DNA from: Candidatus Rokuibacteriota bacterium
GTDB taxonomy: Bacteria; Methylomirabilota; Methylomirabilia; Rokubacteriales; CSP1-6
Length of the DNA stretch: 64,000 nucleotides
Direction: 5' to 3'
Assembly: GCA_016200085.1 (NCBI GenBank)
Contig: JACQFL010000018.1
Span: 48,006 to 112,005 of the forward strand
Part shown: piece by piece, positions 36,124-61,952 of the stretch
Position numbering within the stretch: the first letter of the stretch is position 1
Layout of the letters: each line of letters begins with the position of its first letter
Notes under the pieces: model-generated
Databases searched by the model: none
Told to the model about the DNA's origin: nothing
Seen by the model: only the letters and a program-made list of their open reading frames with translations
Program-made: the position numbers and the translations under genes

Positions 36124-36259
36124 GATACACATAGTCAATATCTTGGGATCATGATCCCGGGAAAAGGAGCTCGAAGGAGACTCGACCAGCAGATCAAGAT
36201 CGACATCCTGTAGGCCAGGACGTCGAAGACGCACAGACAGGTGAAAGGGAGATCAGGAC

Positions 36260-38185
<1,926 letters not shown>

Positions 38186-38189
38186 GCCG

Positions 38190-39077
38190 ATGCGGCGGGA
38201 CTACTACGCGGTGCTCGGCATCGCGGCGACGGCGGCGCCGCGCGAGATCCGCCAGGCGTACCGGCGGCTCGCGCGGCAGTACTCGCCCGACGTGAACTTC
38301 TGGGAGCAGAGCGCGCGCGGCCTCTTCGACGAGATCGCCGAGGCCTATCGCGTGCTCAGCGACCCCGAGGCGCGGGCGATGTACGACCGCTTCGGCCACC
38401 GTGTCGGCGCAGCCGCGCTCGAGGCTGGCCGGCGAGGCGAGGACGTCCACCTCGCCGTGGACCTGCAGTTCGGCGACGCGGCGCGCGGCGTGACGCTCCG
38501 GCTCGGCGTGCCCCGCTTCTCGTCGTGCCCGGACTGTCGCGCCACGGGGCGCGCGCCGGCCGGCGCCTGCCCGGCGTGCCGCGGCCGTGGCGTCCGCCGG
38601 GGCGTCGAGGCCGTCGAGGTGCCCATCCCCGCCGGCGTCGACTCGGGGGACCAGGTGCGCCTCCGGGGCGAGGGCAGCGCGGGACCGTTCGGCGGCCCGC
38701 GCGGCGACCTCGTGGTCAGCACGCGCGTGCCCGAGCATCCGTTCTTCAAGCGGAAGGGCGATCTCGTGCACTGCGAGGTGCCGATCAGCGTCTGGGAGGC
38801 CCTGCGCGGCGCCCGGGCCGCGGTGCCGACCCCCTTTGGCGAGACGACGCTGGTCGTGCCGCCCGGCACCGCGAGCGGCCAGACGTTCCGTCTGCGCGGT
38901 CACGGCCTGCCGCGGCCGGCCTCCGGCGGCGGCCGCGGTGACCTGATCGTCACCGTGCGGGTGACCGTGCCGTCGGGCCTGGACGCCCGCACCGAGGAGC
39001 TGGTGCGCGAGCTGGAGCGGCTCGCCCCCCTCACCCCGCGGGACGGCCTGACGCGCTGGGCGGGAGGGGCCGCGTGA
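38190..39077 (+). CDS. DnaJ-family co-chaperone (CbpA/DnaJ-like, divergent)
   Basis: starts at [11 protein letters not shown] inside the 325-aa track ORF; J domain but with SPD instead of HPD (..RQYSPDVN..); only two CxxC repeats; DnaJ C-terminal domains. Confidence 0.8.
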
Positions 39078-39460
39078 CCGACAGGGGCCGGCCGCTCTAC
39101 ATGATCGGCGTGGTGGCGGAGATGCTGAAGGTCCATCCGCAGACGCTCCGCTTCTACGAGAAGAAGGGGCTGGTGCGGCCGAGCCGCACGGTGGGGCGCA
39201 CGCGCATGTACTCCGACGAGGACGTCCAGGCGCTCGCGCGCCTGCTCCACCTCAGCCGCGATCTCGGCGTGAACCTCGCCGGCGTCGAGATCATCGTAAA
39301 GATGCGACGGCGAATGCTCGATATGCAGAAGCAGATCGAAGACCTGCTCGACTACGTCCGACGGACGGGCGGAGAGGTGCCCGCGGCCACCGGCAGCGAG
39401 CCCCGCGAGGCGCTCGTGCGGGCGGCCTCCGGCCAGCTCCGCCCCGTGGACGTGTTCTAG
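39074..39460 (+). CDS. hspR: MerR-family heat-shock repressor HspR
   Basis: 128 aa; N-terminal HTH LYMIGVVAEMLKVHPQTLRFYEKKGLVRPSRTVGRTRMYS matches the HspR signature; lies between the dnaJ-like gene and lon. Confidence 0.75.
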   Translation: MTDRGRPLYMIGVVAEMLKVHPQTLRFYEKKGLVRPSRTVGRTRMYSDEDVQALARLLHLSRDLGVNLAGVEIIVKMRRRMLDMQKQIEDLLDYVRRTGGEVPAATGSEPREALVRAASGQLRPVDVF

Positions 39461-39503
39461 CCGGCGGTCGGCTCCGGCAGGAAGGCAAGAGGGTTCGATC
39501 ATC

Positions 39504-41867
<2,364 letters not shown>

Positions 41868-43245: not shown

Positions 43246-43890
43246 TCAGGGACGCCACGGGCGATCGAGGCCGCGATGCTGCACGGCCTCGGCGACGTGC
43301 TCGGCGCGGATCGCCGCCGCCCCCTCGAGGTCGGCGATGGTGCGCGCGACCTTCAGGACGCGGTCGTGCGCGCGCGCCGACAGGCCGAGGCGCGTCATGG
43401 CGGCGGCGAGCAGGCGCGCGGCCAGCGCGTCGAGCCCGCACGCGCGGCGCACCAGGCGCGGCGACATCTCCGCGTTCGTCCGCCCCGTGCGGAAGCGCTC
43501 GCGCTGCCGCTCGCGCGCGGCGACCACCCGCGCGCGCACCGCGCGCGACGGCTCGCCCGCGGGCAGCTGCAGGTCCGCGTGGGCGACCGCCGGCATCTCG
43601 ACGTGCAGGTCGATGCGGTCCAGCAGGGGTCGTGAGAGGCGGCCGAGGTAGCGAGCCCGCTCCGCCGGCGTGCACACGCACCGGTCGAGCGAGGGACAGC
43701 CCCGACGGCACGGGTTGGCGGCGCCGACGAGCTGGAAGCGCGCGGGAAAGTGTCCGACACCGCCCGCGCGCGCGATGCTCACCCGGCCGTCCTCGAGCGG
43801 CTGCCGGAGCGACTCGAGCACGTGCTGGGCGAACTCCGGCATCTCGTCGAGGAGCGAGTTACCTCGATACGGTGCAACGGCTGGCCTCGG
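43246..43890 (-). pseudogene. comM: 5'-truncated comM (Mg-chelatase-like / YifB family) remnant
   Basis: encodes only the C-terminal about 210 aa (..LLDEMPEFAQHVLESLRQPLEDGRVSIARAG..FPARFQLVGAANPC..). The AAA+ N-domain including Walker A is missing; homology stops about 30 bp from the stop of the next gene. Confidence 0.7.
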
Positions 43891-43922
43891 TTGCTCTTGA
43901 GTTTGCGGTCGCGGACGCTCGG

Positions 43923-45329
43923 TCAGGAAGGTGACGTCCAGGCGACCGTCCCCGCCGCGAGCGTCGAGCCGCAGAAGGAGCAGCCCGGGCGACGCGCGGC
44001 ACCCCAGTCAACGAGGGTGCCCCGCACGCCATCGAGCTTTCGGAACCCGCGCTGGATCCCCGGTTCGCCGTCGAGCTGGACCGCGCTGTCGCCGAGCCCG
44101 GACCCGGCGAAGCCGGAGAGGAGCTGGAGCACCTCCGTCACCGCCTGGCTCGCGACGACGCCGTTCAGGCTCACCACCTGCGCCTCGCCCTCCCGATTCT
44201 CGAAATAGCTGCGGTTGGGTCCGCGGAGCTCGGTCGCGAGCTTCTCCTTGGAGAGGAACCCGCAGCACCACATGCAGAAGTCGCCGGGGATGAGCGTGAG
44301 CACGTTCCCGCCGATCGCCACCCGCGGGCCATGGCGCTCGGGCTTCTCGATCGCCCGAATATTCACGCCCACGTCCACATACGGGATGAGGAAGCGCCAG
44401 GCGAGTTCCTGGAGGTCTGCCCGCGCGTGCAGGTTGTCGACGCATCCGACGATGACGTCGCCCCGCGTGAGCGCCGCGAGCGCCTTGGGTCCAGGAACGC
44501 GCTCGTTGACCATCTCGCATCGCGTCCCCATGCCGATCCGCCGCACGGCCCGTCGGATCACTACGGTCTTCTTCCTCCGGAGCCATACGTCGAGCCGCGT
44601 GAGGCCCACGAGCCGGTGACGGTCCGTCGGCGCGACGCGGTCGGCGTCGACGAGAATGATCTCGCCCACGCCGAGATGCGCGAGCTGCTGGGCGACGTGG
44701 CTCCCGCCGCCGCCGAGGCCTACGACTGCGACACGCGAGTCGGCGAGCGTCCGCTGGCCGTCCTCGCGAACAATGAGCCTCTGCCGCGCGAAGTCCATGG
44801 CGCCGTGGATCGGTTGCCGCGCTCCGCCCGCTGGCCAGTCGAGGATGGAGGCGCCGAGCCAGCGCACATCGAGCGCCACCTCCTTGGCCGCCGCCGACGC
44901 GCCCGGGAAGACGATGAGGCCGGTGGCGTCGGTGCGCGAGAGGACGACGGAGCCGTGCGGGCGCGCGGGCACGCGCGCCGCGAACATTGGCAGGAGCCGG
45001 GCAGCGCTGCCGCGGTCGTCGCCGGAGATACCTGGGGGACCGTCGTGCGCGTGCGCATGGAAGACGACGAGACCGAGCCCCTCGTCCACCGCGGTCTCGA
45101 GCGCGGGGATCATGGCGGACCCGCGCCAGGCCCCGCCGTGTCCGGGAGCGTGGAAATATGCCTCCTCGGGGAGTGTGAAGATCCTGCGGAGGAGGAGCAC
45201 CTCGCGGCCGGCGAGCGTGGACGAGGAGACGAGTCCGAGCGCCACGTACTCATGGCGGCCAGGCCGGAAGACGGTCTCCATGAGCAATTCCCCGAGACCG
45301 AGCGGGATGCGGAGCCCGAGTTCAGTCAT
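43923..45329 (-). CDS. JAB/MPN (JAMM-like) peptidase - ThiF/E1-like adenylyltransferase fusion protein
   Basis: 468 aa. N-terminus has EYVALGLV..FHAHAHDGPPGISGDD (JAMM-like E..HxH..S..D). C-terminus has the E1 Rossmann motif RVAVVGLGGGGSHVAQQLAHLGVGEIILVDAD plus Cys clusters CMWCCG / CSFCG. Confidence 0.7.
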   Translation of the reverse strand: MTELGLRIPLGLGELLMETVFRPGRHEYVALGLVSSSTLAGREVLLLRRIFTLPEEAYFHAPGHGGAWRGSAMIPALETAVDEGLGLVVFHAHAHDGPPGISGDDRGSAARLLPMFAARVPARPHGSVVLSRTDATGLIVFPGASAAAKEVALDVRWLGASILDWPAGGARQPIHGAMDFARQRLIVREDGQRTLADSRVAVVGLGGGGSHVAQQLAHLGVGEIILVDADRVAPTDRHRLVGLTRLDVWLRRKKTVVIRRAVRRIGMGTRCEMVNERVPGPKALAALTRGDVIVGCVDNLHARADLQELAWRFLIPYVDVGVNIRAIEKPERHGPRVAIGGNVLTLIPGDFCMWCCGFLSKEKLATELRGPNRSYFENREGEAQVVSLNGVVASQAVTEVLQLLSGFAGSGLGDSAVQLDGEPGIQRGFRKLDGVRGTLVDWGAARRPGCSFCGSTLAAGTVAWTSPS

Positions 45330-45684
45330 TTTGGGCGAACCGCTGACGCGCGGCCGTGACGAACCGGATGATGCTCTGGCCCTCCGCCCACGGGATGTTG
45401 AAGGAGAACTGCATCCACGACTCTCCGCCGACGATCTGAGTCGAGGTGCTTCGCGGGGCGCGGCCGTTCGCGAGGAGTTGCCCGGGCTGGACGTAGGGGA
45501 TCGGTTTCGGCTGGTCGGGATCGAAGACGATGAGCATGAGGGTCGTGGGAGGCCGGCAGCCCGGCGGGAGGTCGAGGTCGCTCACCCGGACGAGGGTGCG
45601 GGATCCTTCGCGCGCAGTCCTGACCCCGTCCCCGTAGACGGAGACGAGGTCCCGGATGGCCTGGTCGATGGTCTCAGCCCTCAT
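45322..45684 (-). CDS. small hypothetical protein, candidate E2-like (UBC-fold) component
   Basis: 120 aa with a single Cys (..PPGCRPP..), translationally coupled between the Ubl-like gene and the JAB-E1 gene; assignment by context only. Confidence 0.35.
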   Translation of the reverse strand: MRAETIDQAIRDLVSVYGDGVRTAREGSRTLVRVSDLDLPPGCRPPTTLMLIVFDPDQPKPIPYVQPGQLLANGRAPRSTSTQIVGGESWMQFSFNIPWAEGQSIIRFVTAARQRFAQND

Positions 45685-45961
45685 CGGACTCGCTCACCGT
45701 GCCCGTGGGCAGCGCGACGAAGTGATCGCCGTCCTTGATCTCGACCGGATCGTCGGGGCCGATGTTGCCGCCCGAGGGCTTCCCGTGGACGAGCCGCGTG
45801 AGATCGTCGGTGAGCGGCGCGCCCGCCCCCTCCCGGATCGCTCGGCCGGTGACCGGGGTGGTGTTGAACTGGACGTGCTTGTTCCGGCCGTCCACCTCGA
45901 CCACGATGTTGATGACGCGGTGCTTCACTTCCGGAGCTGCTGTCGTCTCGTGCGCTTCCAT
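45674..45961 (-). CDS. multi-ubiquitin (Mub)-type beta-grasp ubiquitin-like protein
   Basis: 95 aa; ..INIVVEVDGRNKHVQF..VHGKPSGGNIGPDDPVEIKDGDHFVALPTG.. resembles the Mub domain of E1/E2/JAB operons; C-terminal residue is Gly. Confidence 0.5.
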   Translation of the reverse strand: MEAHETTAAPEVKHRVINIVVEVDGRNKHVQFNTTPVTGRAIREGAGAPLTDDLTRLVHGKPSGGNIGPDDPVEIKDGDHFVALPTGTVSESDEG

Positions 45962-46089
45962 TTTGTCCTCCGAAGCCGGGCTCCATACTGTCGGGCCGCG
46001 ATGCTCCTACTTTCCCAGTGCCCGATTTCCGATCGGACCGGACATGCCGACGAAATTGTCCGGGAGGCTCCGGAGCCGGGCATATATAG

Positions 46090-46746
46090 GTGGGACGGAC
46101 GACCAAGCCCGGGAGGGGGAGGGAGTCGGGGCTGGAGAAGCAACCACGGAGGGTGCCAGCGGACCGCGCGGCGACCCCGGACGAGGTCCGGGCCGCCTTG
46201 GACGGCTTGGGCGAGGCCGATCTCGTCCGGCTCGGGAAGTCCGCCCGCTACCGGATACGGGGACTTGGCCGCAAGGCCGGGGGGCGGGACCATGACGATC
46301 TCCTCGGAGAGGCGGTTGCGGACACCCTCGACCCGACGAAGCGCAGATGGAACAAGGACGTAAGCTTCGTCCGGCACCTGATAGGTGCCATGCGGAGCAT
46401 CTCGAGCCACTGGCGCGAGCAGTTCGACCCCGACGAACCGCTCTTGGAAGCGCAGCTCGTCCACACGACCGAGGAAGGAGAACTCCTCAGCCCGATCGAT
46501 TTGGTCGGCTCGGGCGCACCAGGCGCCCAGCGTATCCTTGAGGCCAAAGAAGAGGTCGAGCGCATCGAGAAGGCGGTCGCCGATGACAAGGTCGTGCACG
46601 ACATCCTGGGCGGCCTGCGCGCCGAAATGTCGCCCGACGAAATCCGCGAGGCCTTGGGGCTTTCCGTCACCGAGTACGAGACAGCGATGAAGCGGTTCCG
46701 GAGGCACGTGCGACCGACCGCGGCGCAGGGAGGAAGCGATGCCTGA
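46090..46746 (+). CDS. ECF-type sigma-70 family protein (regions 2 and 4)
   Basis: region-2-like ..DHDDLLGEAVADTL..FVRHLIGAMRSISSHWREQ.. and region-4 HTH ..ILGGLRAEMSPDEIREALGLSVTEYETAMKRFRR; the true start may be downstream of the first ATG. Confidence 0.55.
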   Translation: MGRTTKPGRGRESGLEKQPRRVPADRAATPDEVRAALDGLGEADLVRLGKSARYRIRGLGRKAGGRDHDDLLGEAVADTLDPTKRRWNKDVSFVRHLIGAMRSISSHWREQFDPDEPLLEAQLVHTTEEGELLSPIDLVGSGAPGAQRILEAKEEVERIEKAVADDKVVHDILGGLRAEMSPDEIREALGLSVTEYETAMKRFRRHVRPTAAQGGSDA

Positions 46747-47188
46747 GAAGCCGCGAGACTACGAAGCCGAGCTTCGCGCCATCATGGATGCACTCGCCGA
46801 GTCCGTGGCCGAGGCGTCGGACGAGGACCTCCTTGCGGAAGCGCGCGAGGCGGGTGAGGACCCTCGCCAGACGGCCGCCCGGGTACGGGACGTCTTGAAG
46901 CGTGCCGCGAAGGATTATGAACAGAGACACCTTCGCGCGGCTGAGAAGGCACACGAAGAGCAAGTCAGATCAATTCGCATGCGTCCCTACGTCCTGCCGG
47001 ACACCCCCGAGGGCCGCCGAAAGCTCTTCACACTCGTCGTGACCCGGAAGCCCAAGCTGCGGCAAGCACTCCTCACCCTTCAGAACCGTGAATTCAAAAA
47101 TCTCACGGATGCGGACATCCAAAGCTGCCTCGAGCATCTGGGAGCGCTCGGGGTGCTCCGCGAGTTCGAGGAGCCGGAGGAAGAGTAG
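46739..47188 (+). CDS. hypothetical protein (possible anti-sigma / adaptor)
   Basis: 149-aa acidic helical protein overlapping the sigma gene stop (ATGCCTGA). Confidence 0.4.
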   Translation: MPEKPRDYEAELRAIMDALAESVAEASDEDLLAEAREAGEDPRQTAARVRDVLKRAAKDYEQRHLRAAEKAHEEQVRSIRMRPYVLPDTPEGRRKLFTLVVTRKPKLRQALLTLQNREFKNLTDADIQSCLEHLGALGVLREFEEPEEE

Positions 47189-47189
47189 C

Positions 47190-47987
47190 GTGTCTTCCTC
47201 TTACAGGGCGCCACACACCGTCCTCGAGGAACTCGGCATTCGCGAGCCCGAGGACATCAAGATCGAGGCGATCGCCGAGTACTGCGGCGCGACGATCCTC
47301 TACGAAGCTCTTGAGGGCACTGAGGCAAGGATCTTAGGCTACGGAGACCGTGCGATCATCACCGTGAATGTCGCGGCTCCCCTTGGCCGACGGCGCTTCT
47401 CAGGCGCTCACGAGCTTGGCCATTGGATGTGCGACCGGGGAAAGATCGCGTTTGCATGCACCGACCGCGTGTTCACACGTGAATGGTCGGACGATAACCC
47501 CGAGCGCCGAGCCAATCAGTACGCCGCTGAACTCCTGCTTCCGCAGAGGATGTTCTCGGCTCACGCGAAGAACCGGGAGATCACCTTCGCCGCGGCCCGC
47601 GACCTCGCGGAGGTCTTCAAGACGAGCCTTACCGCGACGGCGATTCGGCTCGTAGAGTTTGGCTCCTTTCCGGCTGTGCTCGTTTGCAGCGATCGAGACC
47701 GTCGGCGGTGGTTCAAGCGCGGCCCCGACGTGCCAGACGTGCTATGGCCCCACGATAGAGTGAGCCCGCGGACGGTGGCGTACGACGTCCTCCACGGTAA
47801 GGCGCTTCCGTCAGGGCCCGTTGACGTCTGTGCGGACGGATGGTTCGGCCATCACGAGGCCCATCGGTATGCCATACGAGAAGATTCCGTACGCATCACC
47901 GACGATTATGTCTTGACGCTTCTTTGGTGGAAGGACGAACGCCAGCTCCTCGATCTCGAGGATGACGACAATGATGATGAGCAGTAA
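47190..47987 (+). CDS. ImmA/IrrE-family metallo-endopeptidase
   Basis: GTG start after a GGAGGAAGAG Shine-Dalgarno; HEXXH motif ..GAHELGHWM.. in a DUF955-type context. Confidence 0.7.
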   Translation: MSSSYRAPHTVLEELGIREPEDIKIEAIAEYCGATILYEALEGTEARILGYGDRAIITVNVAAPLGRRRFSGAHELGHWMCDRGKIAFACTDRVFTREWSDDNPERRANQYAAELLLPQRMFSAHAKNREITFAAARDLAEVFKTSLTATAIRLVEFGSFPAVLVCSDRDRRRWFKRGPDVPDVLWPHDRVSPRTVAYDVLHGKALPSGPVDVCADGWFGHHEAHRYAIREDSVRITDDYVLTLLWWKDERQLLDLEDDDNDDEQ

Positions 47988-48077: not shown

Positions 48078-49334
48078 ATGAGCACGGTGCCGCCAGCCGC
48101 TCGCCGGCGGGTCGTCGTCTTCTCTCCGTGGATAAAGTTCCGTGCGACGCCCTTCGACATGTGCGGCATCCGCGTGATGGGCTTTGACGATGCTCAGCAG
48201 GCGTTGGGCGCGCAGGACCGCGAAGCCCTCTGGCGCGCACGCCTGCCATACGTTGACCACTTCCTAAACGAAGACCGAACACCGCGGCCGTGGAATGAGA
48301 ATCCGTTGTTCTACGCCGCGGCTCCCGCCGATCCGCTCGGGGAACCGCCGGAGCAGGAGCGAGAGGTCATCGGGCTCGTGAACGCCTTCCTCTATCTCTG
48401 TGTGTTCGCGGCAAACCGCGTCGGTCCAGGCGAAATGCAGATCTATACCAATGCGAGTGATTGGGCGCTCTATGTCCATCCGGTTCACGACCCTGAGTAT
48501 TTCGCTCTCGGGGCGCGTAGGCTTTTGGGCCGGTTGAGCCACGGCGGGTTTCGTTGGAACTACTCGGTCATCTCGATGCCGATGGAGTGCACGCGCTACG
48601 AGCTCTACGACGCGGTAATCGACCGGAGCTTCGTGGATGGCGTGACAGCACTCCACGGGCGCGGTCGCGCCGCGCTCTACGTGTCCCCAGTGCGCACGTT
48701 CATGCTCGGGACCGCTGATAACCATCTCTGGAGACGCGAAGAGGATCTGCCACTCATCTGGGCGTCGGTGGAGCAGCTGAACGAATCGGAAGGCTTTGAG
48801 ACATGCGAGGCGGGACGGCGCGAACGAGCCGCCGCCGCAACTGCTCTTCGATTGCAGCCGACTCACACGGTGAGCCTAATCCGTGCCGTTGTTGGTCCTC
48901 CGCCGTCAGCGGAGTATGTGTGGGACGGAGACTTTCGGCCTGACCGACGGGGAGGAGCCACCGCGCCGACACGTGCGCGAAGAGACGGCATGCAGTTCTC
49001 GGCGCTTGAGCGCGCGCTCGACGAGCTGAACTTCGCGAGGAATCGTATTCTGCACGGAGGGCAGCGTCCAGCTCTTGAATGGGACGTCGCCACGCTCGCA
49101 CTCCTGGGCGCGAAGTTCTTCGTCCTCCTCATGAAGCGGATCCTCGCGTGGGAAGAGGTCCGTGCTTGGACCGATGCCGACGCGTGTGAAGCGATGGGGC
49201 TGCACGCGTTTGCGCGAGGTGGTCGTGCATCCTTAGTCGACGGGTATCGGGCTTACGAGCGCGCCGTCGAGGAATGCCGGCGAGAGCGCCAACGGCAGAG
49301 GATGGTCGAGGAGTTCGAGCGCGGGGCGCCGTGA
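48078..49334 (+). CDS. hypothetical protein
   Basis: 418-aa ORF, coding-like composition, no family recognised. Confidence 0.45.
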   Translation: MSTVPPAARRRVVVFSPWIKFRATPFDMCGIRVMGFDDAQQALGAQDREALWRARLPYVDHFLNEDRTPRPWNENPLFYAAAPADPLGEPPEQEREVIGLVNAFLYLCVFAANRVGPGEMQIYTNASDWALYVHPVHDPEYFALGARRLLGRLSHGGFRWNYSVISMPMECTRYELYDAVIDRSFVDGVTALHGRGRAALYVSPVRTFMLGTADNHLWRREEDLPLIWASVEQLNESEGFETCEAGRRERAAAATALRLQPTHTVSLIRAVVGPPPSAEYVWDGDFRPDRRGGATAPTRARRDGMQFSALERALDELNFARNRILHGGQRPALEWDVATLALLGAKFFVLLMKRILAWEEVRAWTDADACEAMGLHAFARGGRASLVDGYRAYERAVEECRRERQRQRMVEEFERGAP

Positions 49335-49987
49335 ATCAGCCACAGCCGCGCTACGAATGTAGTCGTGACGACCTGTTTATGTGGCCGGGTGTCGTTCGGC
49401 CGCCCGAGCTCCACGCGTACCCGACACCACGGCAGCCGGTGCGCGTGGTGTTCATCGGTTGGAACCCACCGAAGCCCTACCGAGGATTCTGGTTTCTGGA
49501 CGAGCACGACAACCTACGCGGGGAGCTTCACACAGTACTACTCAGGCTGCGGCGCGTTACCGCTCACGCTCCCGACGGATGGTTCCTCGAGGAGTTTCTC
49601 GAAGCCGGCTACTACTTCGTTCACGCCGTGAAGTGCTGGGCGAAGGCGAAATATCCTGGCTTCGGTCGAGGTGCGGTGCCACGCGACCGACGCAACATCG
49701 GCGAGCCTTTAGCCAGGGCATGCGCCGCGGCTCACCTTTGCGAGGAGCTACGGCGGCTGGCGCCGAAGCGCGTGTGCGCGCTCGGCGAGCTTGCCTACTG
49801 CGCGCTTCGCGCTCTTCAGCCCGATCTTGATCCTAAAGCGCGGCCGACCGAGGGGCGCCGTTTCGAGCTTTCAGTGGACGGGATCAATGTGCCGCTGCTG
49901 TACACCTCCTTTCCATCCTCGAGCCCGGTGCGCGGCCGGCAGTTACGGGACTTCACGCGGGGCCATCTCGAAGAGTTCTTGGCGTAA
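49274..49987 (+). CDS. uracil-DNA glycosylase superfamily protein (family 4-like)
   Basis: ..VVFIGWNPP..FVHAVKCWAKAKYPGFGRG..C..LCEELRRLAPKRVCALGELA.. fits the UDG-fold VKC..P / C..L..L..P..I..LG pattern; the likely true start is the internal MWPGVV at about 49379. Confidence 0.5.
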   Translation: MPARAPTAEDGRGVRARGAVNQPQPRYECSRDDLFMWPGVVRPPELHAYPTPRQPVRVVFIGWNPPKPYRGFWFLDEHDNLRGELHTVLLRLRRVTAHAPDGWFLEEFLEAGYYFVHAVKCWAKAKYPGFGRGAVPRDRRNIGEPLARACAAAHLCEELRRLAPKRVCALGELAYCALRALQPDLDPKARPTEGRRFELSVDGINVPLLYTSFPSSSPVRGRQLRDFTRGHLEEFLA

Positions 49988-51900: not shown

Positions 51901-53300
51901 AGAAATGGCGCATTCTTCCGGTGGGAAGTCCCACCACCAACCGGCCGTCCGGCAAGACGGCCGCCGGAGGAATGCGCTATGGCGAAGCGTATCAGGAAGT
52001 CGGAGCGGCTGCCTGAAGATCGGCCGGCCGCGCTGGGCGAGTTGATTCATGCCCAGGTCCGGGTCGCGATCGAGACGGCCGTGCACGAAGAGCTGGCGAT
52101 CGCGCTCGGGGCCGGGCGCTACGAGCGCCACGACGGGCGGCGCGGCTACCGCAACGGCCTCAAGACGCGCACCCTGACGGGCCCGACCGGGCCGCTGGCC
52201 CTCACGCTGCCCCGCGCCACGCTGGGGGCGCCGAGCCGCGAATGGTGCTCGACGATCGTGCCGCGCTATCAGCGCCGGATGCGCGAGGTGAACGAGACGG
52301 TGATCGCGACGTACTTGGCCGGGGGGAACCAGCGGCGGATCCGCGGCGCGCTGCAGCCGCTGCTCAAGGCGGCGCCGCTTTCCAAGAGCGCGGTCTCCCG
52401 GATCGTCGCCACGCTGAAAGATGGGCTGACGGCCTGGACCGCGCGCTCGCTCACCGAGGTTGACCTCGTCTACCTCTATCTCGACGCCGTGTGCGTGCGG
52501 GTGCGCAGCGCGGGCAAGGTCGCGAGCGTGCCCGTGCTGACGGCCGTGGCCGTGCTCGCCGACGGCCGCAAGGAGTTGCTCGCGCTGGAGCTGTGCGGCA
52601 GCGAATCGGGCGACGCGTGGCGGGACTTCGTCGCGGACTTGCAGGCCCGCGGGCTCCGCGCGCCGCTCCTGGCGATCATCGACGGCAATCCGGGCCTGCG
52701 CCTGGCCCTGAGCCGGACGTGGCCGGCGACGGCCGTGCAGCGTTGCGCCGTCCACAAGCTCCGCAACCTCGAGCGTAAGGCGCCCAAGCACGCGCTCGAC
52801 GAGCTCCGCGAGGACTTTCATCGCATCGTCTATGCGGCGTCCGCCGACGCGGGCCGCGCGGCGTACACGACCTTCGAACGCAAGTGGGCGAAGCGCTGTC
52901 CCGGCGTCGGGCGCAGCCTCCACGAGGGCGGCGCGGAGTTGCTGACCTTTTTCACCTTTCCGAAGGCGCAGTGGAAGACGCTGCGCACCACGAACGTGAT
53001 CGAACGGCTCAATGAGGAATTCCGCCGGCGCGTGAAGACGCAGGGCTCGCTGCCGACCGAGGATGCCGCGCTGATCCTGCTCTTCAGCCTGGTCGCCAGC
53101 GGGCAGATCAAGCTGCGGAAGATCGATGGGCACGCGACGATCGCGACCGTCATCAGCAAGCGGCTGCGGCCCGCGGCGTGACCCCCCCGAGCCGGGCTCT
53201 TGCGCTTTGCGTCCAGGGACGAGAGAATCGCGATCGCTCAGAGCCTCGGAGAGCGACGATCGCGAGCGAGGCAATACCCTGATATCCCCCTCGCCGCGAT
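51880..53300 (+). mobile_element. IS256-family insertion sequence (boundaries approximate)
   Basis: single transposase gene flanked by about 100 bp of non-coding ends; it sits between a 5' gene body and a protein-like 3' fragment on the minus strand. Confidence 0.7.
51979..53181 (+). CDS. IS256-family (Mutator-like) transposase
   Basis: 400 aa; ..DLVYLYLDAVCVRVR..LLAIIDGNPGLRLAL..AVQRCAVHKLRNL..NVIERLNEEFRRR.. matches the IS256 DDE transposase pattern. Confidence 0.9.
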   Translation: MAKRIRKSERLPEDRPAALGELIHAQVRVAIETAVHEELAIALGAGRYERHDGRRGYRNGLKTRTLTGPTGPLALTLPRATLGAPSREWCSTIVPRYQRRMREVNETVIATYLAGGNQRRIRGALQPLLKAAPLSKSAVSRIVATLKDGLTAWTARSLTEVDLVYLYLDAVCVRVRSAGKVASVPVLTAVAVLADGRKELLALELCGSESGDAWRDFVADLQARGLRAPLLAIIDGNPGLRLALSRTWPATAVQRCAVHKLRNLERKAPKHALDELREDFHRIVYAASADAGRAAYTTFERKWAKRCPGVGRSLHEGGAELLTFFTFPKAQWKTLRTTNVIERLNEEFRRRVKTQGSLPTEDAALILLFSLVASGQIKLRKIDGHATIATVISKRLRPAA

Positions 53301-54251
53301 TCACGACGGTGTCGGTCGCGACCGCCGATCGATGGAATGCCGGAGGATCGCCTCTCGATTTTCCACATCAAGCGGGACGCCACCCATATCTCCGATCATG
53401 TCTTCAAACAGATTGAGAGCCGCGGAGACGCCCACGTACTTACAGAGGAGAAACTCCTTATTGTTCCACTCGCGCGGGTAGGCTGCCGCAAGAACCTTGA
53501 AGTATGTCATCAGCACTCTGAGCTGAAGCGCTTCCTCAAAGAAGTCCGCATCCTCGGTGTGGAAAATGTGCCCTCGTTTCAAGAGCTTCTTGAGCGCCGT
53601 CATGAACGACGAAAGGCTGATGATGCGACCGGCGCCACCGACCATCCCAATCTTGTCGTGCCACGGAGAGTCGCGGTCCTCGTTCAACGAACTGACGAGG
53701 TAGTAAGCCCGCCGGTCCTCGAACTCCACCCATTCCGTTTGGCGGAGCATTGGTATCAGGTCATACACAAGGGAAGGATTGATCTTCCTTTGAGTGCCGT
53801 TGATCGTCCGGAACACAAGAGCTTTGAACTCATCAGGCAGGTCTATAAAGGCCGAAACGACAAGTGGAAGGTCGACGGAGCCGGAGTACTCATCATCGAA
53901 CGACCAGAGGCGGTGCTGTCCGTCCAAGACAAACGCCTCTGCACTCGGTCGATTAGGTATATGGATATAGTTGTCTCTGAAATACGCGTCGGCGCTTAGG
54001 GACACAATAATTGCGTTGGGAAGCAGAGGAGGACCGGCGGTTCGGCCCTGCAGATAGTCGCCGATTTCGCGTAGGCGGCTTGCGTTGAGGCCTCGTTGAA
54101 TTCCCTGTCGATTTTCTCGGGTTCTCTCGCTCGTATACGAAACGCTCAAGAGAGTCTTCGCCGTGAGTGAGAAGACGTAGAAGGTGAAATCTCCTTGGCT
54201 AATCGGTAACGCTGGAACTGGTGGTAGAAATCCGTTGGTCTTGTTAGGCAT
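53301..54251 (-). CDS. DGQHR-domain protein (DndB-like paralog), probably 3'-disrupted by the IS
   Basis: 316 aa with ..AFVLDGQHRLWSF..; the ORF ends a few codons into the IS-proximal sequence. Confidence 0.7.
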   Translation of the reverse strand: MPNKTNGFLPPVPALPISQGDFTFYVFSLTAKTLLSVSYTSERTRENRQGIQRGLNASRLREIGDYLQGRTAGPPLLPNAIIVSLSADAYFRDNYIHIPNRPSAEAFVLDGQHRLWSFDDEYSGSVDLPLVVSAFIDLPDEFKALVFRTINGTQRKINPSLVYDLIPMLRQTEWVEFEDRRAYYLVSSLNEDRDSPWHDKIGMVGGAGRIISLSSFMTALKKLLKRGHIFHTEDADFFEEALQLRVLMTYFKVLAAAYPREWNNKEFLLCKYVGVSAALNLFEDMIGDMGGVPLDVENREAILRHSIDRRSRPTPS

Positions 54252-54339
54252 TATGGCTAACCATGGGGGTTGTTACCGGTCCGCAGTATGTAAGAAACCG
54301 ACACGATTCCCCGTCGCCGGTGGATGCACCGATACGTCG

Positions 54340-56061
54340 TTACTTGACGGGAACCGGAAGGAGGTCAAGAACATGGTCGCGGCCGCCGCCTGCCTCGATC
54401 ATACGCTCGCGCTTCGCGATAATCGCCATCGGTTCAGCTTGCTCGATGAGGTATTTCCGGAGATCGATCTCGTCATACTCCGCATCCTGGCGCGACAGCA
54501 TGTCCGCGAGAGCGCCACGTACACCCTTCGCCGCAGCCTCCACAAATTCCCGAAGCTGGTCTCTCGTCATGCCAGTTGAGATACGCTGCCAGATCGCCTC
54601 CGGCGCCTTATCACGGTATCGTTGCGCGACCAGCCTGCCGATTAGGGCCAGCACGAAGTGGCGGCCGACCTTGAGGTCGACGAGTCGACGAAGTCGGATA
54701 AGCGCGGGATCGTTCGTCCGCGCAACTTCGGCCCTGAGATAGCGTCGAAAACTGTTCAGGGCCTCCCAGAAGTGCCAGCTTATGACCAATTCCACCGCTT
54801 GCCGCCCGTAGACCTGCTGATATGTCGCCGCGGCATCGTCGAAAAGCTCCTCTTCACTGAGTGAGATCGCATCTTTCGGGCGGCCGGTGAACGCGAGATA
54901 GGCGCGACCCGCCATTTCGGACGAGATCAGTTTCCCGCGATAGCGGCGTTTGTCGGCTCGGGGCAGCGCGTCGGCTCCGCCGGCCTTCCGCTCGTAGAAG
55001 TACCCAAGGTTCTGGAACTCCTGCTCGAGTCTGCGTTGCTCGTCGTCGTTTGAGACCAAGTCCCGCGCCCGGATCGCGTTCTGACGGTTCGTCCGCTCGC
55101 TGATCCTTTCAGCGAGTTCTCCCGCTCTCGGCGGAGCGACGAAGAGGCGCACGAGTACATGAACGTTATCGGTAAGGAGTCCATCGCGATCAGCTGTCGC
55201 AATGGCAGTGGTCGTCTGGCAACCGTTGACGATACGCATGTTGAAAACCAGGATCTGGTTGTTGTCTCGGCGGCGGAAATCATCGCAGACAACGCTGATG
55301 CCGTTGTTGTATGCCCAGAAGAAGGCCTTGTCGTCTGGCTCCCGGAGGGTGGCCACGATCTTTGCGTTGACCTTGGACCGCTTGAGGGTGAGCCGGGGAT
55401 TCAGTTGGAAGATCGCGTTGCCGAGCCGGTCATAAATGGCTGCGAGATCAGAGGCTGGCGTGCTGAAGATTGCGCTTTGGGGCAGGTCCCGCGTGAAGAT
55501 CTGATTCCCAACGATGTTGAAGGTCACGGGCTGCTGTGCGCTGTGCTCGAAGTACGCGTGGAGCGTATCGAGATTAACGAAGTCCGCGGTGTGATTTGGA
55601 GGCAACGCGCCTCGTCGCCGGCGAATCTCGTCTTCCGCCTGGGGGCTGAACGTTCCTGTGACCGCGAAGATCAGGCGGACATCGTATCCTTGCGCCACGC
55701 AGGCGCGATAGTCGAGCTGCGCGGCGCGAACCTCGGCGCGGGCGGCAAGCGGAGCATTGAGCAGGCGGTCTGGGAGACCGAAGAAGGTCTCCACTTCCTC
55801 CCGCGCGACCGAATACGTGCCGTCCTGCCGGTATTTGCCCTGAACGATCGTGACGACCCTCGCGTCGTCGTCCTTGTCGAATCCGTCAACGTCGAGATCT
55901 CCGTTCTCTACCTCCGCGTCCTCAATCGCAGTGTCACGCTCGATCCCGCCTACCGACTGAAGGACGTATGCGACGAAGGCGCGATCGGGCGAGTCTTGGA
56001 TCTCCTCGGCGAGATCTTCGATTACCTCGCCGAGCCGACGGAGGAACTCCTCCCGCGTCAT
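54340..56061 (-). CDS. AIPR-like abortive-infection family protein
   Basis: 573 aa; ..VFNMRIVNGCQTTTAIA.. resembles the AIPR NGxQT core; 7-nt gap to the upstream gene. Confidence 0.5.
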   Translation of the reverse strand: MTREEFLRRLGEVIEDLAEEIQDSPDRAFVAYVLQSVGGIERDTAIEDAEVENGDLDVDGFDKDDDARVVTIVQGKYRQDGTYSVAREEVETFFGLPDRLLNAPLAARAEVRAAQLDYRACVAQGYDVRLIFAVTGTFSPQAEDEIRRRRGALPPNHTADFVNLDTLHAYFEHSAQQPVTFNIVGNQIFTRDLPQSAIFSTPASDLAAIYDRLGNAIFQLNPRLTLKRSKVNAKIVATLREPDDKAFFWAYNNGISVVCDDFRRRDNNQILVFNMRIVNGCQTTTAIATADRDGLLTDNVHVLVRLFVAPPRAGELAERISERTNRQNAIRARDLVSNDDEQRRLEQEFQNLGYFYERKAGGADALPRADKRRYRGKLISSEMAGRAYLAFTGRPKDAISLSEEELFDDAAATYQQVYGRQAVELVISWHFWEALNSFRRYLRAEVARTNDPALIRLRRLVDLKVGRHFVLALIGRLVAQRYRDKAPEAIWQRISTGMTRDQLREFVEAAAKGVRGALADMLSRQDAEYDEIDLRKYLIEQAEPMAIIAKRERMIEAGGGRDHVLDLLPVPVK

Positions 56062-56068
56062 CCGCGGG

Positions 56069-56479
56069 CTATCGGACGCCCGCGACGACGAGTTCGGCGA
56101 ACTTCAGAAGCCGGTCGCCCGGTTCTTGCGCAACCCGCTGCTCGATAAGCGAAATCCCTCCGTTCGCGTATTCCTCGGCGATCGTGAGGAGCTCTCCTTG
56201 GTCGAGGAGCACTTTCACGTCACCGGTTGCGGCAATCGCAAGCGCACGTAGGACAGGGATATCGTCCTGGGGCGAGAAGATTGACCAGGCAAAGACCTGC
56301 TGCCGGCGCTCAAGCGGCACGCGCTTGTTGAGCTGAAAGCCGAGGCAGGCGGCCACAAGGAAGAGGTCTTTCATAGTCTTGAACGGGGACTCCTCGCCCG
56401 ACGTGAGTGTCCGATAGAATTCGTGCGACGCAGCATCGACCGAAACCCGATCTCGCCGGACCTCGGCGGTCTCTTTCAT
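56069..56479 (-). CDS. small hypothetical protein (DndE-sized, follows the DndD-like gene)
   Basis: 136 aa; 4-nt ATGA overlap with the DndD-like gene, mirroring the dndD-dndE arrangement; similarity to DndE not established. Confidence 0.35.
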   Translation of the reverse strand: MKETAEVRRDRVSVDAASHEFYRTLTSGEESPFKTMKDLFLVAACLGFQLNKRVPLERRQQVFAWSIFSPQDDIPVLRALAIAATGDVKVLLDQGELLTIAEEYANGGISLIEQRVAQEPGDRLLKFAELVVAGVR

Positions 56480-58422: not shown

Positions 58423-58579
58423 CCCGTGCCTCCTCGTCGAGGATCTCGCGAAGCGCCTCCTTGAACCGTGGACGCTCGAGAGTGATGTTGCTCTGCTCGA
58501 ATTCAAGGACGCGCGAGACGGTGCGCTGGACATCCTCTGGGAACTGCTTGAAGAGCTCGAGTAAGACCTGTCTCACCAT
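58412..58579 (-). CDS. unannotated 55-aa small ORF
   Basis: MVRQVLLELFKQFPEDVQRTVSRVLEFEQSNITLERPRFKEALREILDEEARDEA; GAGGA Shine-Dalgarno 5 nt upstream; ATG 6 nt after the helicase stop; its stop overlaps the DndD-like ATG (ATGAAGCTTGA); missing from the ORF track. Confidence 0.45.
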   Translation of the reverse strand: MVRQVLLELFKQFPEDVQRTVSRVLEFEQSNITLERPRFKEALREILDEEARDEA

Positions 58580-58587
58580 GGCAATCC

Positions 58588-60657: not shown

Positions 60658-60719
60658 GGTGGAGTAGGGCGTCCCGCCATTACAGCGGGCGGGGTGAAAA
60701 TGTCAATAAAGTTGATATC

Positions 60720-60754
60720 TTAAGCTTCCATTCCAAAATATTAAGCTTCCTTCC
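60720..60754. promoter_or_regulatory. paired TTAAGCTTCC direct repeats (AAGCTT palindromes) in the AT-rich divergent promoter region
   Basis: TTAAGCTTCCAT and TTAAGCTTCCTT spaced 23 bp apart inside the AT-rich 60.66-60.81 kb intergenic region. Confidence 0.35.
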
Positions 60755-60812
60755 CGTCGAACTTGACTTCCAAAGCCCGTCCGCATACGCTTTCCCGCAA
60801 AGCGGGCAAGTC

Positions 60813-61949: not shown

Positions 61950-61952
61950 CGG

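What the first reader, a model, noticed from the sequence alone, without database searches (positions are those of the whole stretch)
43923..45961. Ubiquitin-like conjugation operon: Mub-type beta-grasp protein, small E2-like candidate, JAB-E1 fusion
Three translationally coupled minus-strand genes with 11-nt and 8-nt overlaps. (1) A 95-aa protein resembles the multi-ubiquitin beta-grasp domain and ends in Gly (..SESDEG). (2) A 120-aa protein with a single Cys (PPGCRPP) sits where an E2 would be. (3) A 468-aa fusion combines an N-terminal JAMM-like metallopeptidase motif (E..HAHAHD..S.DD) with a C-terminal ThiF/E1 Rossmann adenylation domain (VAVVGLGGGGSH) and Cys clusters. This matches the E1/E2/JAB/Ubl operon class predicted by comparative genomics. 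That class is related to the recently characterised bacterial Ubl-conjugation antiviral systems (Bil/Bub-type, and CBASS Cap2/Cap3). A JAB-E1 fusion with a free-standing Mub protein directly next to a truncated comM and an ImmA-type regulator is, as far as I can tell, an uncharacterised variant.
Basis: partly seen in the sequence, partly recalled or inferred. Interest (0 to 1): 0.8.

Follow-up and report, generated by a model that had tools for sequence, protein, structure and literature searches.

The report
Bub-type ubiquitin-like conjugation cassette, variant
Three overlapping genes encode a bacterial ubiquitin-like protein, a small E2 and a peptidase-E1 fusion of the recently characterised 'Bub' family, in an uncatalogued form that lacks the family's usual serine protease BubE and whose ubiquitin-like protein normally ends in serine rather than glycine.

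Summary
The three minus-strand ORFs and their 11-nt and 8-nt overlaps are real. The 468-aa protein is a clear homologue of Citrobacter BubCD, the JAB peptidase-E1 fusion of Type I Bub (6E.1) operons (profile E=1.5e-41). Its JAMM residues and the crossover-loop tyrosine (Y375) are invariant in 115 homologues.

The 120-aa protein is a BubB-type minimal E2 (AF2 pLDDT 92; best PDB fold hit Citrobacter BubB, TM 0.73).

The 95-aa protein is a single beta-grasp Ubl. Its terminal Gly comes from a lineage-specific stop-codon loss: 108 of 120 homologues end at ...LPTGTVS.

The operon differs from catalogued Bub types:
- Ubl and E2 are separate genes.
- No DUF6527/BubE was found.
- The E2 keeps only the Ser of the Ser/His/Asp set.
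- The E1 has a four-Cys zinc motif.
- The divergent regulators are a sigma-like protein, a helical protein and a CapP-type protease.

All six genes move as one 4.1-kb cassette, here at a broken comM beside a Dnd/AIPR defence island.

Verdict: a new variant of a known kind. The mechanism is inferred by homology; the biological role is unproven.

The parts
45674..45961 (-). BubA-like ubiquitin-like protein, 95 aa. It has a disordered N-terminus (residues 1-16), one beta-grasp domain (residues 17-84), the tail LPTGTVS, and a lineage-specific extension ESDEG.
   Evidence: ORF. The AF2 core has pLDDT around 90 with a beta-beta-alpha-beta...beta order. All top Foldseek PDB hits are Ubl domains, including the bacterial multi-ubiquitin proteins 9d5b, 9d59 and 8u38. 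14 of 24 family members hit Pfam Multi_ubiq, best 1.7e-9. 108 of 120 homologues end at GTVS. The stop-codon change is shown.
45322..45684 (-). BubB-like minimal E2, 120 aa. The predicted nucleophile is Ser94 (motif W90-x3-S94-F-N96). Cys43 is conserved in the clade but is not at the active-site position.
   Evidence: AF2 pLDDT 92.5, pTM 0.86. Foldseek top hit is 9eae_C, Citrobacter BubB (E=1.6e-4, TM 0.73), followed by UbcH8 and UbcH7. Profile A6 against PDB hits BubB at 9.4e-23, with S94 aligned to S333, N96 to H335, I62 to D299 and C43 to Tyr. Ser is present in 162 of 165 relatives, Cys in 2 and Thr in 1.
44820..45329 (-). JAB/JAMM metallopeptidase domain of the BubCD-like fusion (residues 1 to about 170), with E27, H91, H93, S102 and D105.
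   Evidence: The residues are conserved in 113-115 of 115 homologues. They align with the E/HxH/S..D motif of Citrobacter BubCD, whose E28, H91, H93 and D104 are the zinc site and catalytic residues (PMC11601596).
43923..44798 (-). E1 adenylation domain of the BubCD-like fusion (residues about 178-468). Features: Rossmann motif GLGGGGSH, R239, D298, crossover-loop Tyr375, and a four-Cys motif (C352, C355, C450, C453). Coordinates include the stop codon.
   Evidence: Pfam ThiF 8.4e-35. PDB best hit is Citrobacter BubCD, 1.1e-22 with the single sequence and 1.5e-41 with the profile, spanning both domains. Y375 is present in 115 of 115 homologues and aligns to BubCD Y370. C356 is present in only 69 of 115.
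45962..46152 (.). Divergent intergenic region between the Ubl operon and the regulator operon; presumed promoter and operator region.
   Evidence: Position only. No sigma-70 consensus promoter was found. There is one 10-nt inverted repeat and short direct repeats of uncertain significance.
46153..46746 (+). Regulator 1, 197 aa (218 aa if translation starts at GTG 46090). Divergent sigma-70/ECF-like or LuxR-type HTH protein.
   Evidence: Conserved next to the operon in L001, L002, L005-L008, L011 and L012. The only sequence support is sub-threshold: Sigma70_r4_2, GerE, Sigma70_ECF and Sigma70_r2 in some members, and CnrH sigma factor at E=0.16.
46739..47188 (+). Regulator 2, 149 aa. Probably all-helical (inferred from the sequence and the helical-repeat PDB hits; no structure was predicted) and of unknown family. 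Candidate substrate or partner of the protease (CapH-like repressor or anti-sigma analogue).
   Evidence: Conserved between regulator 1 and the CapP-like gene in the same loci. No significant Pfam, NCBIfam, PADLOC or PDB match.
47190..47987 (+). CapP-type (ImmA/IrrE, Peptidase_M78) zinc metallopeptidase with the motif HELGH. The start codon is uncertain; the ORF is open from 47088.
   Evidence: PADLOC capP 2.5e-59 over 232 of 242 model positions. Pfam Peptidase_M78 3.2e-15. Translation. The corresponding gene in L001 was called as a 266-aa product.
43849..47953 (.). Extent of the six-gene cassette as a transferable unit.
   Evidence: 98.9% DNA identity over 4105 bp to contig L001 (GCA_040960765.1), with no similarity on either side. 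In L001 the flank is cobD, whereas here it is the comM fragment.

Best explanation
This is an inducible ubiquitin-like protein conjugation cassette of the Bub (6E) family, in a form that lacks BubE and has separate Ubl and E2 genes.

Proposed steps:
1. A CapP-type protease sits in a divergent operon with a sigma-like HTH protein and a small helical protein. In response to DNA damage or infection it cleaves a partner protein and switches on the three-gene operon. This step is inferred from CapH/CapP.
2. The 95-aa Ubl is trimmed by the N-terminal JAB domain of the 468-aa protein, which removes the ESDEG extension. This is inferred; the family's native end is ...LPTGTVS. The tail length after the conserved Pro favours Ser90 as the reactive C-terminus, although cleavage after Gly87 is not excluded.
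3. The E1 domain, expected to be a homodimer, adenylates the Ubl C-terminus and passes it to Tyr375 on the crossover loop as an oxyester.
4. The Ubl moves to Ser94 of the 120-aa E2, again as an oxyester, and then to lysines of target proteins.
5. With no BubE present, the JAB domain is the only candidate deconjugase.

What is shown here: homology, folds, residue conservation, cassette structure and genomic context. What is inferred from Citrobacter Bub biochemistry: the chemistry. What is unknown: the targets, and whether the system defends against phage.
For: - BubCD homology covers both domains. JAMM residues, R239, D298 and Y375 are invariant, and there is no conserved crossover-loop Cys.
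- The E2 fold matches Citrobacter BubB best, and a combined profile hits BubB at 9.4e-23 with S94 on the catalytic S333. Two relatives carry Cys at exactly this position, which marks it as the nucleophile site.
- The Ubl has a beta-grasp fold and its family links to Multi_ubiq.
- The same six-gene layout occurs in Rokubacteria, Acidobacteriota, Myxococcota and Dormibacterota MAGs at 50-70% identity. The Ubl/E2/JAB-E1 trio also occurs in Nitrospira and Chlorobi, there without a detected regulator trio. A near-identical copy lies in a different genomic context.
- CapP homology is strong. CapH+CapP accompany 31% of catalogued Bub operons (PMC11601596).
- The neighbourhood contains AIPR, Dnd-like and helicase/PLD genes and an IS256-family transposase. 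Other copies lie next to T4SS genes, integrases and IS91.
Against: - No biochemical data exist for this clade.
- The E2 lacks the His and Asp that accompany the catalytic Ser in Type I BubB (N96 and I62 instead), so reactivity of the Ser is unproven.
- Cys43 is kept in 148 of 165 E2 relatives with no explanation.
- A C-terminal Ser, rather than the conserved Gly, has no precedent in the catalogued BubA proteins.
- BubE, said to be present in all Bub operons, is absent.
- Bub operons have not been shown to protect against phage (PMC11601596; PMC13373217).
- The sigma-like assignment of regulator 1 rests only on sub-threshold hits.
Confidence: 0.7

Rival explanations
1. Classical thioester cascade. 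The single Cys of the 120-aa protein (C43) is the E2 catalytic residue and receives the Ubl from a Cys of the E1 (for example C356).
For: C43 is invariant in the 26 close homologues and present in 148 of 165 relatives. It is also kept as PxGC in distant Bacteroidota split-type E2s. C356 lies next to the crossover loop.
Against: C43 lies in the beta2-beta3 turn and aligns to Tyr in Citrobacter BubB. It is Pro in L014 and W, Y or F in other relatives. C356 is replaced by S, I, A, T, V or L in 46 of 115 E1s, including L002, whose E2 keeps C43. When a Cys does appear at the nucleophile site (P0403, P0411) it replaces Ser94, not residue 43.
Confidence: 0.07
2. Sulfur-carrier or cofactor-biosynthesis module of the MoaD/ThiS-MoeB/ThiF type, in which the small protein is thiocarboxylated rather than conjugated.
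For: The E1 domain matches ThiF and MoeB models and carries the MoeB/ThiF-like four-Cys motif.
Against: - NCBIfam ThiF/MoeB scores are far below the curated cut-offs (73.9 against 275; 64 against 266).
- There is no Gly-Gly end and no rhodanese domain, and no moa or thi genes lie nearby.
- A JAB peptidase and an E2 are fused or coupled to the E1.
- The closest solved relative is BubCD, ahead of ThiF and MoeB by about 20 orders of magnitude in E-value.
- The cassette sits in mobile or defence contexts.
Confidence: 0.02
3. Same biochemistry, different biology. The cassette is a DNA-damage or stress-response modifier of host proteins, or serves the mobile element that carries it, rather than being an anti-phage defence system.
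For: No Bub operon has been shown to protect against phage. The CapP-type regulators respond to DNA damage. The cassette rides on integrative or conjugative elements.
Against: It co-locates with AIPR, Dnd-like, GmrSD and restriction-type genes here and in relatives. CapH/CapP-type control is typical of immune operons. None of this is decisive.
Confidence: 0.3
4. Decayed or incomplete Bub operon: a Type I system that lost bubE and split bubAB by mutation, and no longer functions.
For: BubE is absent. The window copy has a mutated Ubl stop codon.
Against: - The BubE-less split layout is conserved with intact, length-conserved ORFs across at least six phyla and down to 45-50% identity.
- Catalytic residues are invariant.
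- A 98.9%-identical copy in another context shows recent transfer of the intact cassette.
Confidence: 0.04

Closest known systems
Type I Bub (6E.1) operon: BubAB, BubCD, BubE (Citrobacter sp. RHBSTW-00271; Ye, Gong, Chambers & Corbett, PMC11601596; PDB 9ea4, 9eae, 9eav)
   Same: - JAB-E1 fusion with the same JAMM residues, adenylation residues and invariant crossover-loop Tyr, and no conserved catalytic Cys.
- Minimal UBC-fold E2 with Ser at the nucleophile site.
- Multi_ubiq-type beta-grasp Ubl.
- Association with a CapP protease, and location in mobile or defence loci.
   Different: - Ubl and E2 are separate genes here, with an 11-nt overlap (a 3-nt gap in relatives), not a BubAB pre-protein.
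- No DUF6527 BubE.
- The Ubl family ends in ...GTVS rather than a conserved Gly.
- The E2 has Asn and Ile where Type I BubB has His335 and Asp299, and the clade carries its own conserved Cys43.
- The E1 carries a CxxC...CxxC motif that is absent at the first pair's position in Citrobacter BubCD (the alignment does not reach the second pair).
- BubCD identity was not computed. The window protein is about 25-37% identical to the distant Bub-type homologues found in genomes, and the window E2 is missed by Pfam Prok-E2_E.
Type II Bub (6E.2): BubA, BubBD (E2-E1 fusion), BubE
   Same: Free-standing Ubl, Ser-type E2 nucleophile, Tyr in the E1 crossover loop, single ThiF-like adenylation domain.
   Different: Type II fuses E2 to E1, usually has no JAB domain, and always has BubE. 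Here the JAB is fused to E1, the E2 is free, and there is no BubE.
Bil (BilABCD) anti-phage Ubl conjugation systems
   Same: Ubl + E2 + JAB + E1 gene set; conjugation to target lysines; defence-island context.
   Different: Bil E1 is a large IAD-AAD-CYS enzyme with a catalytic Cys, its JAB is a separate protein, and its E2 uses Cys. The PADLOC BilD match here is marginal (3.1e-5) and limited to the Rossmann core.
Type II CBASS Cap2/Cap3
   Same: ThiF-like homodimeric-type E1 chemistry plus a JAB peptidase; frequent CapH/CapP control.
   Different: Cap2 is an E2-E1 fusion that conjugates the CD-NTase itself through Cys thioesters. There is no CD-NTase or effector here. The PADLOC E1-E2 hits cover only residues about 180-320.
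CapH+CapP DNA-damage-responsive regulator pair
   Same: A CapP-type M78 metallopeptidase is encoded divergently from the regulated operon (PADLOC 2.5e-59).
   Different: The usual small XRE-HTH CapH is replaced by two proteins: a roughly 200-aa sigma/LuxR-like HTH protein and a roughly 150-aa helical protein. Neither matches CapH models. More distant Bacteroidota split-type loci do carry an XRE-HTH plus CapP.

Membership tests
Type I Bub (6E.1) operon | JAB/JAMM peptidase-E1 fusion homologous to BubCD | tested here: met
   PDB search: Citrobacter BubCD is the best hit, 1.1e-22 (single sequence) and 1.5e-41 (profile), aligned over residues 14-399 and covering both domains.
Type I Bub (6E.1) operon | JAMM zinc and catalytic residues (E28, H91, H93, D104 in Citrobacter) | tested here: met
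   E27, H91, H93, S102 and D105 are conserved in 113-115 of 115 homologues and align to the BubCD motif.
Type I Bub (6E.1) operon | Invariant Tyr and no conserved Cys in the E1 crossover loop | tested here: met
   Y375 is present in 115 of 115 and aligns to Y370. The adjacent C356 is present in only 69 of 115. The other Cys residues form CxxC pairs.
Type I Bub (6E.1) operon | BubB-type UBC-fold E2 with a catalytic Ser | tested here: met
   Foldseek top hit is 9eae_C, BubB, TM 0.73. Profile A6 hits BubB at 9.4e-23 with S94 on S333. Ser is present in 162 of 165 relatives.
Type I Bub (6E.1) operon | E2 Ser accompanied by an invariant His (S-x-H) and Asp | tested here: not met
   N96 aligns to H335 and I62 to D299. 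Asn is present at that position in 143 of 165 relatives and His in 1 of 165.
Type I Bub (6E.1) operon | Ubl encoded as a Ubl-E2 fusion (BubAB) that BubC cleaves | tested here: not met
   The genes are separate here and in all close relatives. True fusions appear only among distant relatives (P0418, P0420, L030).
Type I Bub (6E.1) operon | Conserved C-terminal Gly on the mature Ubl | tested here: not met
   108 of 120 homologues end in ...GTVS. The Gly here is the last residue of a non-conserved extension created by a TAG->GAG change.
[quoted passage not shown] | DUF6527 serine protease BubE in the operon | tested here: not met
   - No PF20137 among the Pfam hits for tested window ORFs between 42.7 and 63.4 kb.
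- None in the precomputed Pfam annotation of five related contigs.
- A BubE profile built from L030, L036 and L038 (two of them confirmed as DUF6527) finds nothing in the window or in the other 57 loci.
- Caveat: the three-sequence profile has limited reach.
[quoted passage not shown] | ATP-dependent Ubl-target conjugation through oxyester intermediates | not testable with these tools
   Requires biochemistry. Inferred only from residue conservation.
Pfam Multi_ubiq (PF14452) | Score above the gathering threshold | tested here: inconclusive
   The window protein scores 15.9 bits against a cut-off of 24.5. 14 of 24 family members hit at E<=0.01, best 1.7e-9. The fold matches Ubls, including multi-ubiquitin structures.
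Pfam Prok-E2_E (PF14462) | Score above the gathering threshold | tested here: not met
   No hit for the window E2. L014 gives E=0.0066. Distant relatives reached by the family profile (P0403, P0418-P0420; L036) are true members.
Bil (BilABCD) | Multidomain E1 (IAD-AAD-CYS) with a catalytic Cys, separate JAB, Cys-type E2 | tested here: not met
   The E1 has a single adenylation domain of about 290 aa fused to the JAB. The PADLOC BilD match is only 3.1e-5 over the Rossmann core. The E2 nucleophile is Ser.
CBASS Cap2/Cap3 | E2-E1 fusion with an adjacent CD-NTase and effector | tested here: not met
   The E2 is free-standing. No CD-NTase was seen among the neighbours. PADLOC E1-E2 hits are partial.
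MoeB/ThiF sulfur-carrier adenylyltransferases | Equivalog-level score, a Gly-Gly sulfur carrier, and a biosynthetic context | tested here: not met
   NCBIfam scores are 74 against a cut-off of 275 and 64 against 266. There is no GG terminus and no moa or thi neighbours.
CapH+CapP regulator pair | CapP M78 protease plus a small HTH repressor CapH | tested here: inconclusive
   CapP is met (2.5e-59, HELGH motif). No CapH match was found. Two other conserved proteins are present instead, one with sub-threshold sigma/LuxR HTH similarity.

The most novel reading that the evidence does not exclude
The cassette represents a third, uncatalogued type of Bub pathway with three distinguishing properties. 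It activates a ubiquitin-like protein at a C-terminal serine instead of glycine. It uses the JAB domain as its only peptidase, with no BubE. It is switched on by a CapP-type protease acting on an anti-sigma/sigma-like pair rather than on a CapH repressor.
Probability: 0.35. Interest if true: 0.65.

Novelty: new variant of a known kind. Interest (0 to 1): 0.5.

Why it matters
Bub pathways are the only known ubiquitin-type cascades that run without catalytic cysteines, and their biological role is still open. This conserved, horizontally mobile clade breaks several rules taken from the first catalogue:
- it does without BubE;
- it encodes the Ubl and E2 separately;
- it ends the Ubl in Ser;
- it keeps only the Ser of the E2 active-site set.

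The clade therefore helps define which features are essential to the chemistry. It offers a minimal three-protein system for reconstitution. It also extends the family to soil and peat phyla (Rokubacteria, Acidobacteriota, Myxococcota, Dormibacterota, Nitrospira).

If the regulator trio works as proposed, it would be a new way of coupling a CapP-type damage sensor to transcription.

Tried and rejected
- Direct Pfam, NCBIfam and PADLOC scans of the 95-aa and 120-aa proteins gave nothing significant. Family profiles and structure prediction were needed.
- The A2 profile alone did not reach Citrobacter BubB in the PDB. It did so only after distant relatives from the 1.84-billion-protein search were added.
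- I looked for the N-terminal half of comM in the window with a Walker-A search and found only Lon.
- A sigma-70 promoter and terminator scan of 43.7-46.3 kb found nothing. The short repeats in the divergent intergenic region were not pursued.
- Profile searches for the 149-aa regulator returned only helical-repeat noise.
- Table S1 of the Bub paper is not held, so I could not check whether this clade is in the 544-operon catalogue.
- tblastn against plasmids found only distant (27-33%) BubCD-like genes. Against phages it found nothing relevant.
- The thioester (Cys43), sulfur-carrier and decayed-operon readings were rejected; see the rival explanations.
- I could not measure the Cys43-Ser94 distance because model coordinates are not exposed.


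Full report
**Observation**

They overlap by 11 nt and 8 nt. Each has a large family of full-length homologues of matching size:
- 215 hits for the 120-aa protein;
- 193 hits for the 95-aa protein.

These are real genes, not chance ORFs in GC-rich DNA.

**The 468-aa protein is a BubCD homologue**

Pfam sees only ThiF, at residues 181-421 (8.4e-35). An alignment of 24 homologues at 48-78% identity shows an invariant E27...H91-x-H93...S102-x-x-D105 in the N-terminal 170 residues. Across 115 full-length homologues these positions are conserved in 113-115 sequences.

The best solved relative is Citrobacter BubCD (PDB 9ea4). It scores E=1.1e-22 with the single sequence and 1.5e-41 with the family profile. 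It is aligned over both domains, with the E, HxH and S..D motifs in register.

Ye et al. (PMC11601596) showed the following for BubCD:
- It is a homodimeric JAB peptidase-E1 fusion.
- Its zinc site is H91/H93/D104, with catalytic E28.
- Its crossover loop has no Cys but an invariant Tyr (Y370) that is needed for conjugation.

In the window protein, Y375 aligns to Y370 and is present in 115 of 115 homologues. The neighbouring C356 is present in only 69 of 115. The remaining conserved Cys residues form two CxxC pairs (C352/C355 and C450/C453). I read these as a MoeB/ThiF-type structural zinc site, from established knowledge of those enzymes. At the position of the first pair, Citrobacter BubCD has no Cys in the alignment; that alignment ends at residue 399, so the second pair could not be compared.

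**The 120-aa protein is a BubB-type E2 whose nucleophile is Ser94**

No library model hits it. AlphaFold2 on the family alignment gives a confident model (pLDDT 92.5, pTM 0.86). The model has an N-terminal helix, a four-stranded sheet, a beta-hairpin and one C-terminal helix.

Foldseek against the PDB puts Citrobacter BubB (9eae_C) first (E=1.6e-4, probability 1.00, TM 0.73/0.70). UbcH8 and UbcH7 follow.

A profile search of 1.84 billion representative proteins found only 63 relatives. The most distant include Ubl-E2 fusions (P0418, P0420) and free E2s that are true Pfam Prok-E2_E members. A joint alignment of these with the window protein (A6) hits Citrobacter BubB at 9.4e-23. It maps the residues as follows:

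| Window E2 | Citrobacter BubB |
|---|---|
| S94 | S333 (catalytic) |
| N96 | H335 |
| I62 | D299 |
| C43 | a Tyr |

S94 is Ser in 162 of 165 relatives, Cys in two and Thr in one. The Ser-to-Cys swaps at this exact column (P0403, P0411) mark it as the nucleophile position.

C43 is conserved within the clade (148 of 165). It is Pro in L014 (Nitrospira) and W, Y or F elsewhere.

**The 95-aa protein is a single beta-grasp Ubl, but its Gly end is accidental**

The AF2 model has a well-predicted beta-beta-alpha-beta...beta core at residues 17-84. Both termini are disordered. Its best PDB matches are all ubiquitin-like domains. They include the bacterial multi-ubiquitin proteins of Methylobacterium, Citrobacter and E. 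coli. Of 24 family members, 14 match Pfam Multi_ubiq; the window copy itself is below threshold.

The family alignment shows an invariant tail...F-x-A-L-P-T-G-T-V-S, followed directly by the stop codon. In 120 homologues:
- 108 end at GTVS;
- 12 carry extensions (ESDEG, HSDEG, ESDDG, ESDED, QVDEARDD).

At the DNA level the window has GAG where relative L002 has TAG. The frame therefore runs five codons into the E2 start region.

More distant split-type Ubls also end in Ser...PDGGVS in L016 and ...PKDGHSS in L017. Classical BubA ends in ...PLDQTEG.

The tail after the conserved Pro is 5-6 residues long in all of these if the terminal Ser or Gly is counted. It would be only 2-3 residues long if the internal Gly were the mature end. 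I therefore favour Ser90 as the reactive C-terminus, with the JAB domain removing extensions where present. This is an inference and I could not test it.

**Relationship to the catalogued Bub types**

Ye et al. define two types. They state that all Bub operons encode BubE and that all Type I operons fuse the Ubl to the E2.

| Type | Components |
|---|---|
| Type I | BubAB fusion + BubCD + BubE (DUF6527) |
| Type II | BubA + BubBD + BubE |

The window operon has BubCD but separate Ubl and E2 genes and no BubE. I checked the BubE absence in three ways:
- Pfam on the neighbouring window ORFs found no DUF6527.
- The precomputed Pfam annotation of five related contigs shows none.
- A BubE profile was built from three operons found in the genome scan (L030, L036, L038). 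Two of them were confirmed as DUF6527 by Pfam. The profile hits nothing in the window or in the other 57 loci.

L030 served as a positive control. It is a textbook Type I operon: a Multi_ubiq-Prok-E2_E fusion, BubCD and DUF6527.

The BubE-less split layout is not a one-off. The Ubl-E2-JAB-E1 order recurs at 44-68% identity in MAGs of Rokubacteria, Acidobacteriota, Polyangiaceae and other Myxococcota, Dormibacterota, Chlorobiaceae and Nitrospira. It also recurs, more distantly, in Acidimicrobiia and Bacteroidota.

**Regulators and mobility**

Three conserved genes are transcribed divergently from the operon:
- a roughly 200-aa protein with only sub-threshold similarity to sigma-70 region 4, ECF sigma and LuxR HTH domains;
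- a roughly 150-aa, probably all-helical protein with no relatives in the libraries;
- a CapP-type M78 metallopeptidase (PADLOC capP 2.5e-59; HELGH motif).

The trio accompanies the operon in L001, L002, L005-L008, L011 and L012.

CapH+CapP pairs control 31% of catalogued Bub operons and respond to DNA damage. Here no CapH is recognisable. I propose, with low confidence, that the protease acts on the helical protein or on the HTH protein (a repressor-like or anti-sigma-like arrangement) to induce the operon.

The six genes form a discrete unit. Window 43849-47953 is 98.9% identical to a contig of GCA_040960765.1, and nothing on either side is shared. In that contig the cassette abuts cobD. Here it abuts the breakpoint of a comM/YifB gene of which only the C-terminal 198 residues remain.

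Downstream in the window lie an IS256-family transposase, an AIPR protein, two DndB-like proteins, a DndC-like PAPS reductase, an SMC-like ATPase and a helicase/PLD protein. Other copies sit beside T4SS genes, integrases, GmrSD and IS91. This is the usual setting of defence or stress cassettes. However, Bub operons have not yet been shown to protect against phage.

**Mechanism, and how sure I am**

Shown here: homology, folds, invariant residues, cassette structure and context.

Inferred from Citrobacter Bub biochemistry, in order:
1. The E1 adenylates the Ubl.
2. The Ubl passes to Tyr375 as an oxyester.
3. It passes to Ser94 of the E2 as an oxyester.
4. It is transferred to target lysines.
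5. The JAB domain processes the Ubl end and, with BubE absent, probably also reverses conjugation.

Open points:
- The E2 lacks the His and Asp partners of the catalytic Ser.
- The conservation of Cys43 is unexplained.
- The identity of the reactive C-terminal residue is unknown.
- The targets are unknown.

My confidence levels are:
- about 0.9 that this is a Bub-family conjugation system;
- about 0.6 for the oxyester route as described;
- about 0.5 for an anti-phage role.

**Novelty and score**

The operon class was predicted long ago (6E). Its core enzymes have been characterised since 2024, so the finding is not categorically new. It is a conserved, mobile variant that violates several features stated to define Bub operons, and it is confined so far to uncultured soil and peat lineages. 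I could not check the published operon table, so 'uncatalogued' is an inference from the stated definitions.

I rate it a new variant of a known kind, interest 0.5.

Noticed in passing
window 43246-43842 (-) and 43849: comM/YifB is represented only by its C-terminal 198 residues (model positions 305-499). The break lies 7 nt from the edge of the 4.1-kb cassette. The N-terminal half is not in the window, so the inserted island extends at least 20 kb to the window end.
   Followed up: partly
window 43849-47953 vs L001 4744-8848: The six-gene cassette is 98.9% identical to a contig of GCA_040960765.1, with unrelated flanks (cobD there, comM' here). No recombinase lies inside the cassette, so how it moves is unknown.
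   Followed up: partly
window 46153-47987 (+): A conserved regulator trio: a sigma/LuxR-like HTH protein, a helical protein of unknown family, and a CapP-type protease. It takes the place of the usual CapH+CapP pair and may be a protease-controlled sigma/anti-sigma switch.
   Followed up: partly
window 51979-63356: An IS256/Mutator-family transposase is followed by AIPR, two DndB-like genes, a DndC-like PAPS reductase with a small Dnd-associated domain, an SMC-like ATPase and a helicase/PLD protein. This looks like a Dnd-type or related defence island. GC drops from about 0.70 to about 0.60.
   Followed up: partly
window 49274-49987 (+) and 48078-49334 (+): A UDG-superfamily protein (Pfam 1.7e-5) and a 418-aa protein with no family match lie between the cassette and the transposase.
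   Followed up: no
L036 6086-8693 and L038 6082-8651: Bradyrhizobium guangxiense and Novipirellula rosea carry operons with a DUF6527/BubE-type gene but separate Ubl and Prok-E2_E genes. In L038 they overlap by 4 nt and the Ubl ends ...TEGQ. The DUF6527 assignment was confirmed by Pfam for L038; for L036 it rests on similarity to the confirmed L030 and L038 proteins. Split A/B genes are therefore not limited to the BubE-less clade, contrary to the published statement that all Type I operons are fused.
   Followed up: partly
P0403, P0411 (metagenomic E2 relatives): Two free-standing Prok-E2_E-like proteins carry Cys (LCWQ, FCWQ) exactly where the family has the nucleophile Ser. This suggests switching between oxyester and thioester chemistry within one family.
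   Followed up: no
L020, L022, L024-L028, L031, L032, L034: In several phyla the JAB (about 170-200 aa) and the E1 (about 270-300 aa) of BubCD-like proteins are separate adjacent genes. In some of these loci a small E2 and a CapP-like gene were also detected. This is another layout of the same toolkit.
   Followed up: no
window 36194-41867 and elsewhere: Long antisense ORFs (for example 610 aa opposite dnaK and 836 aa opposite lon) are artefacts of the 70% GC content, not genes.
   Followed up: no
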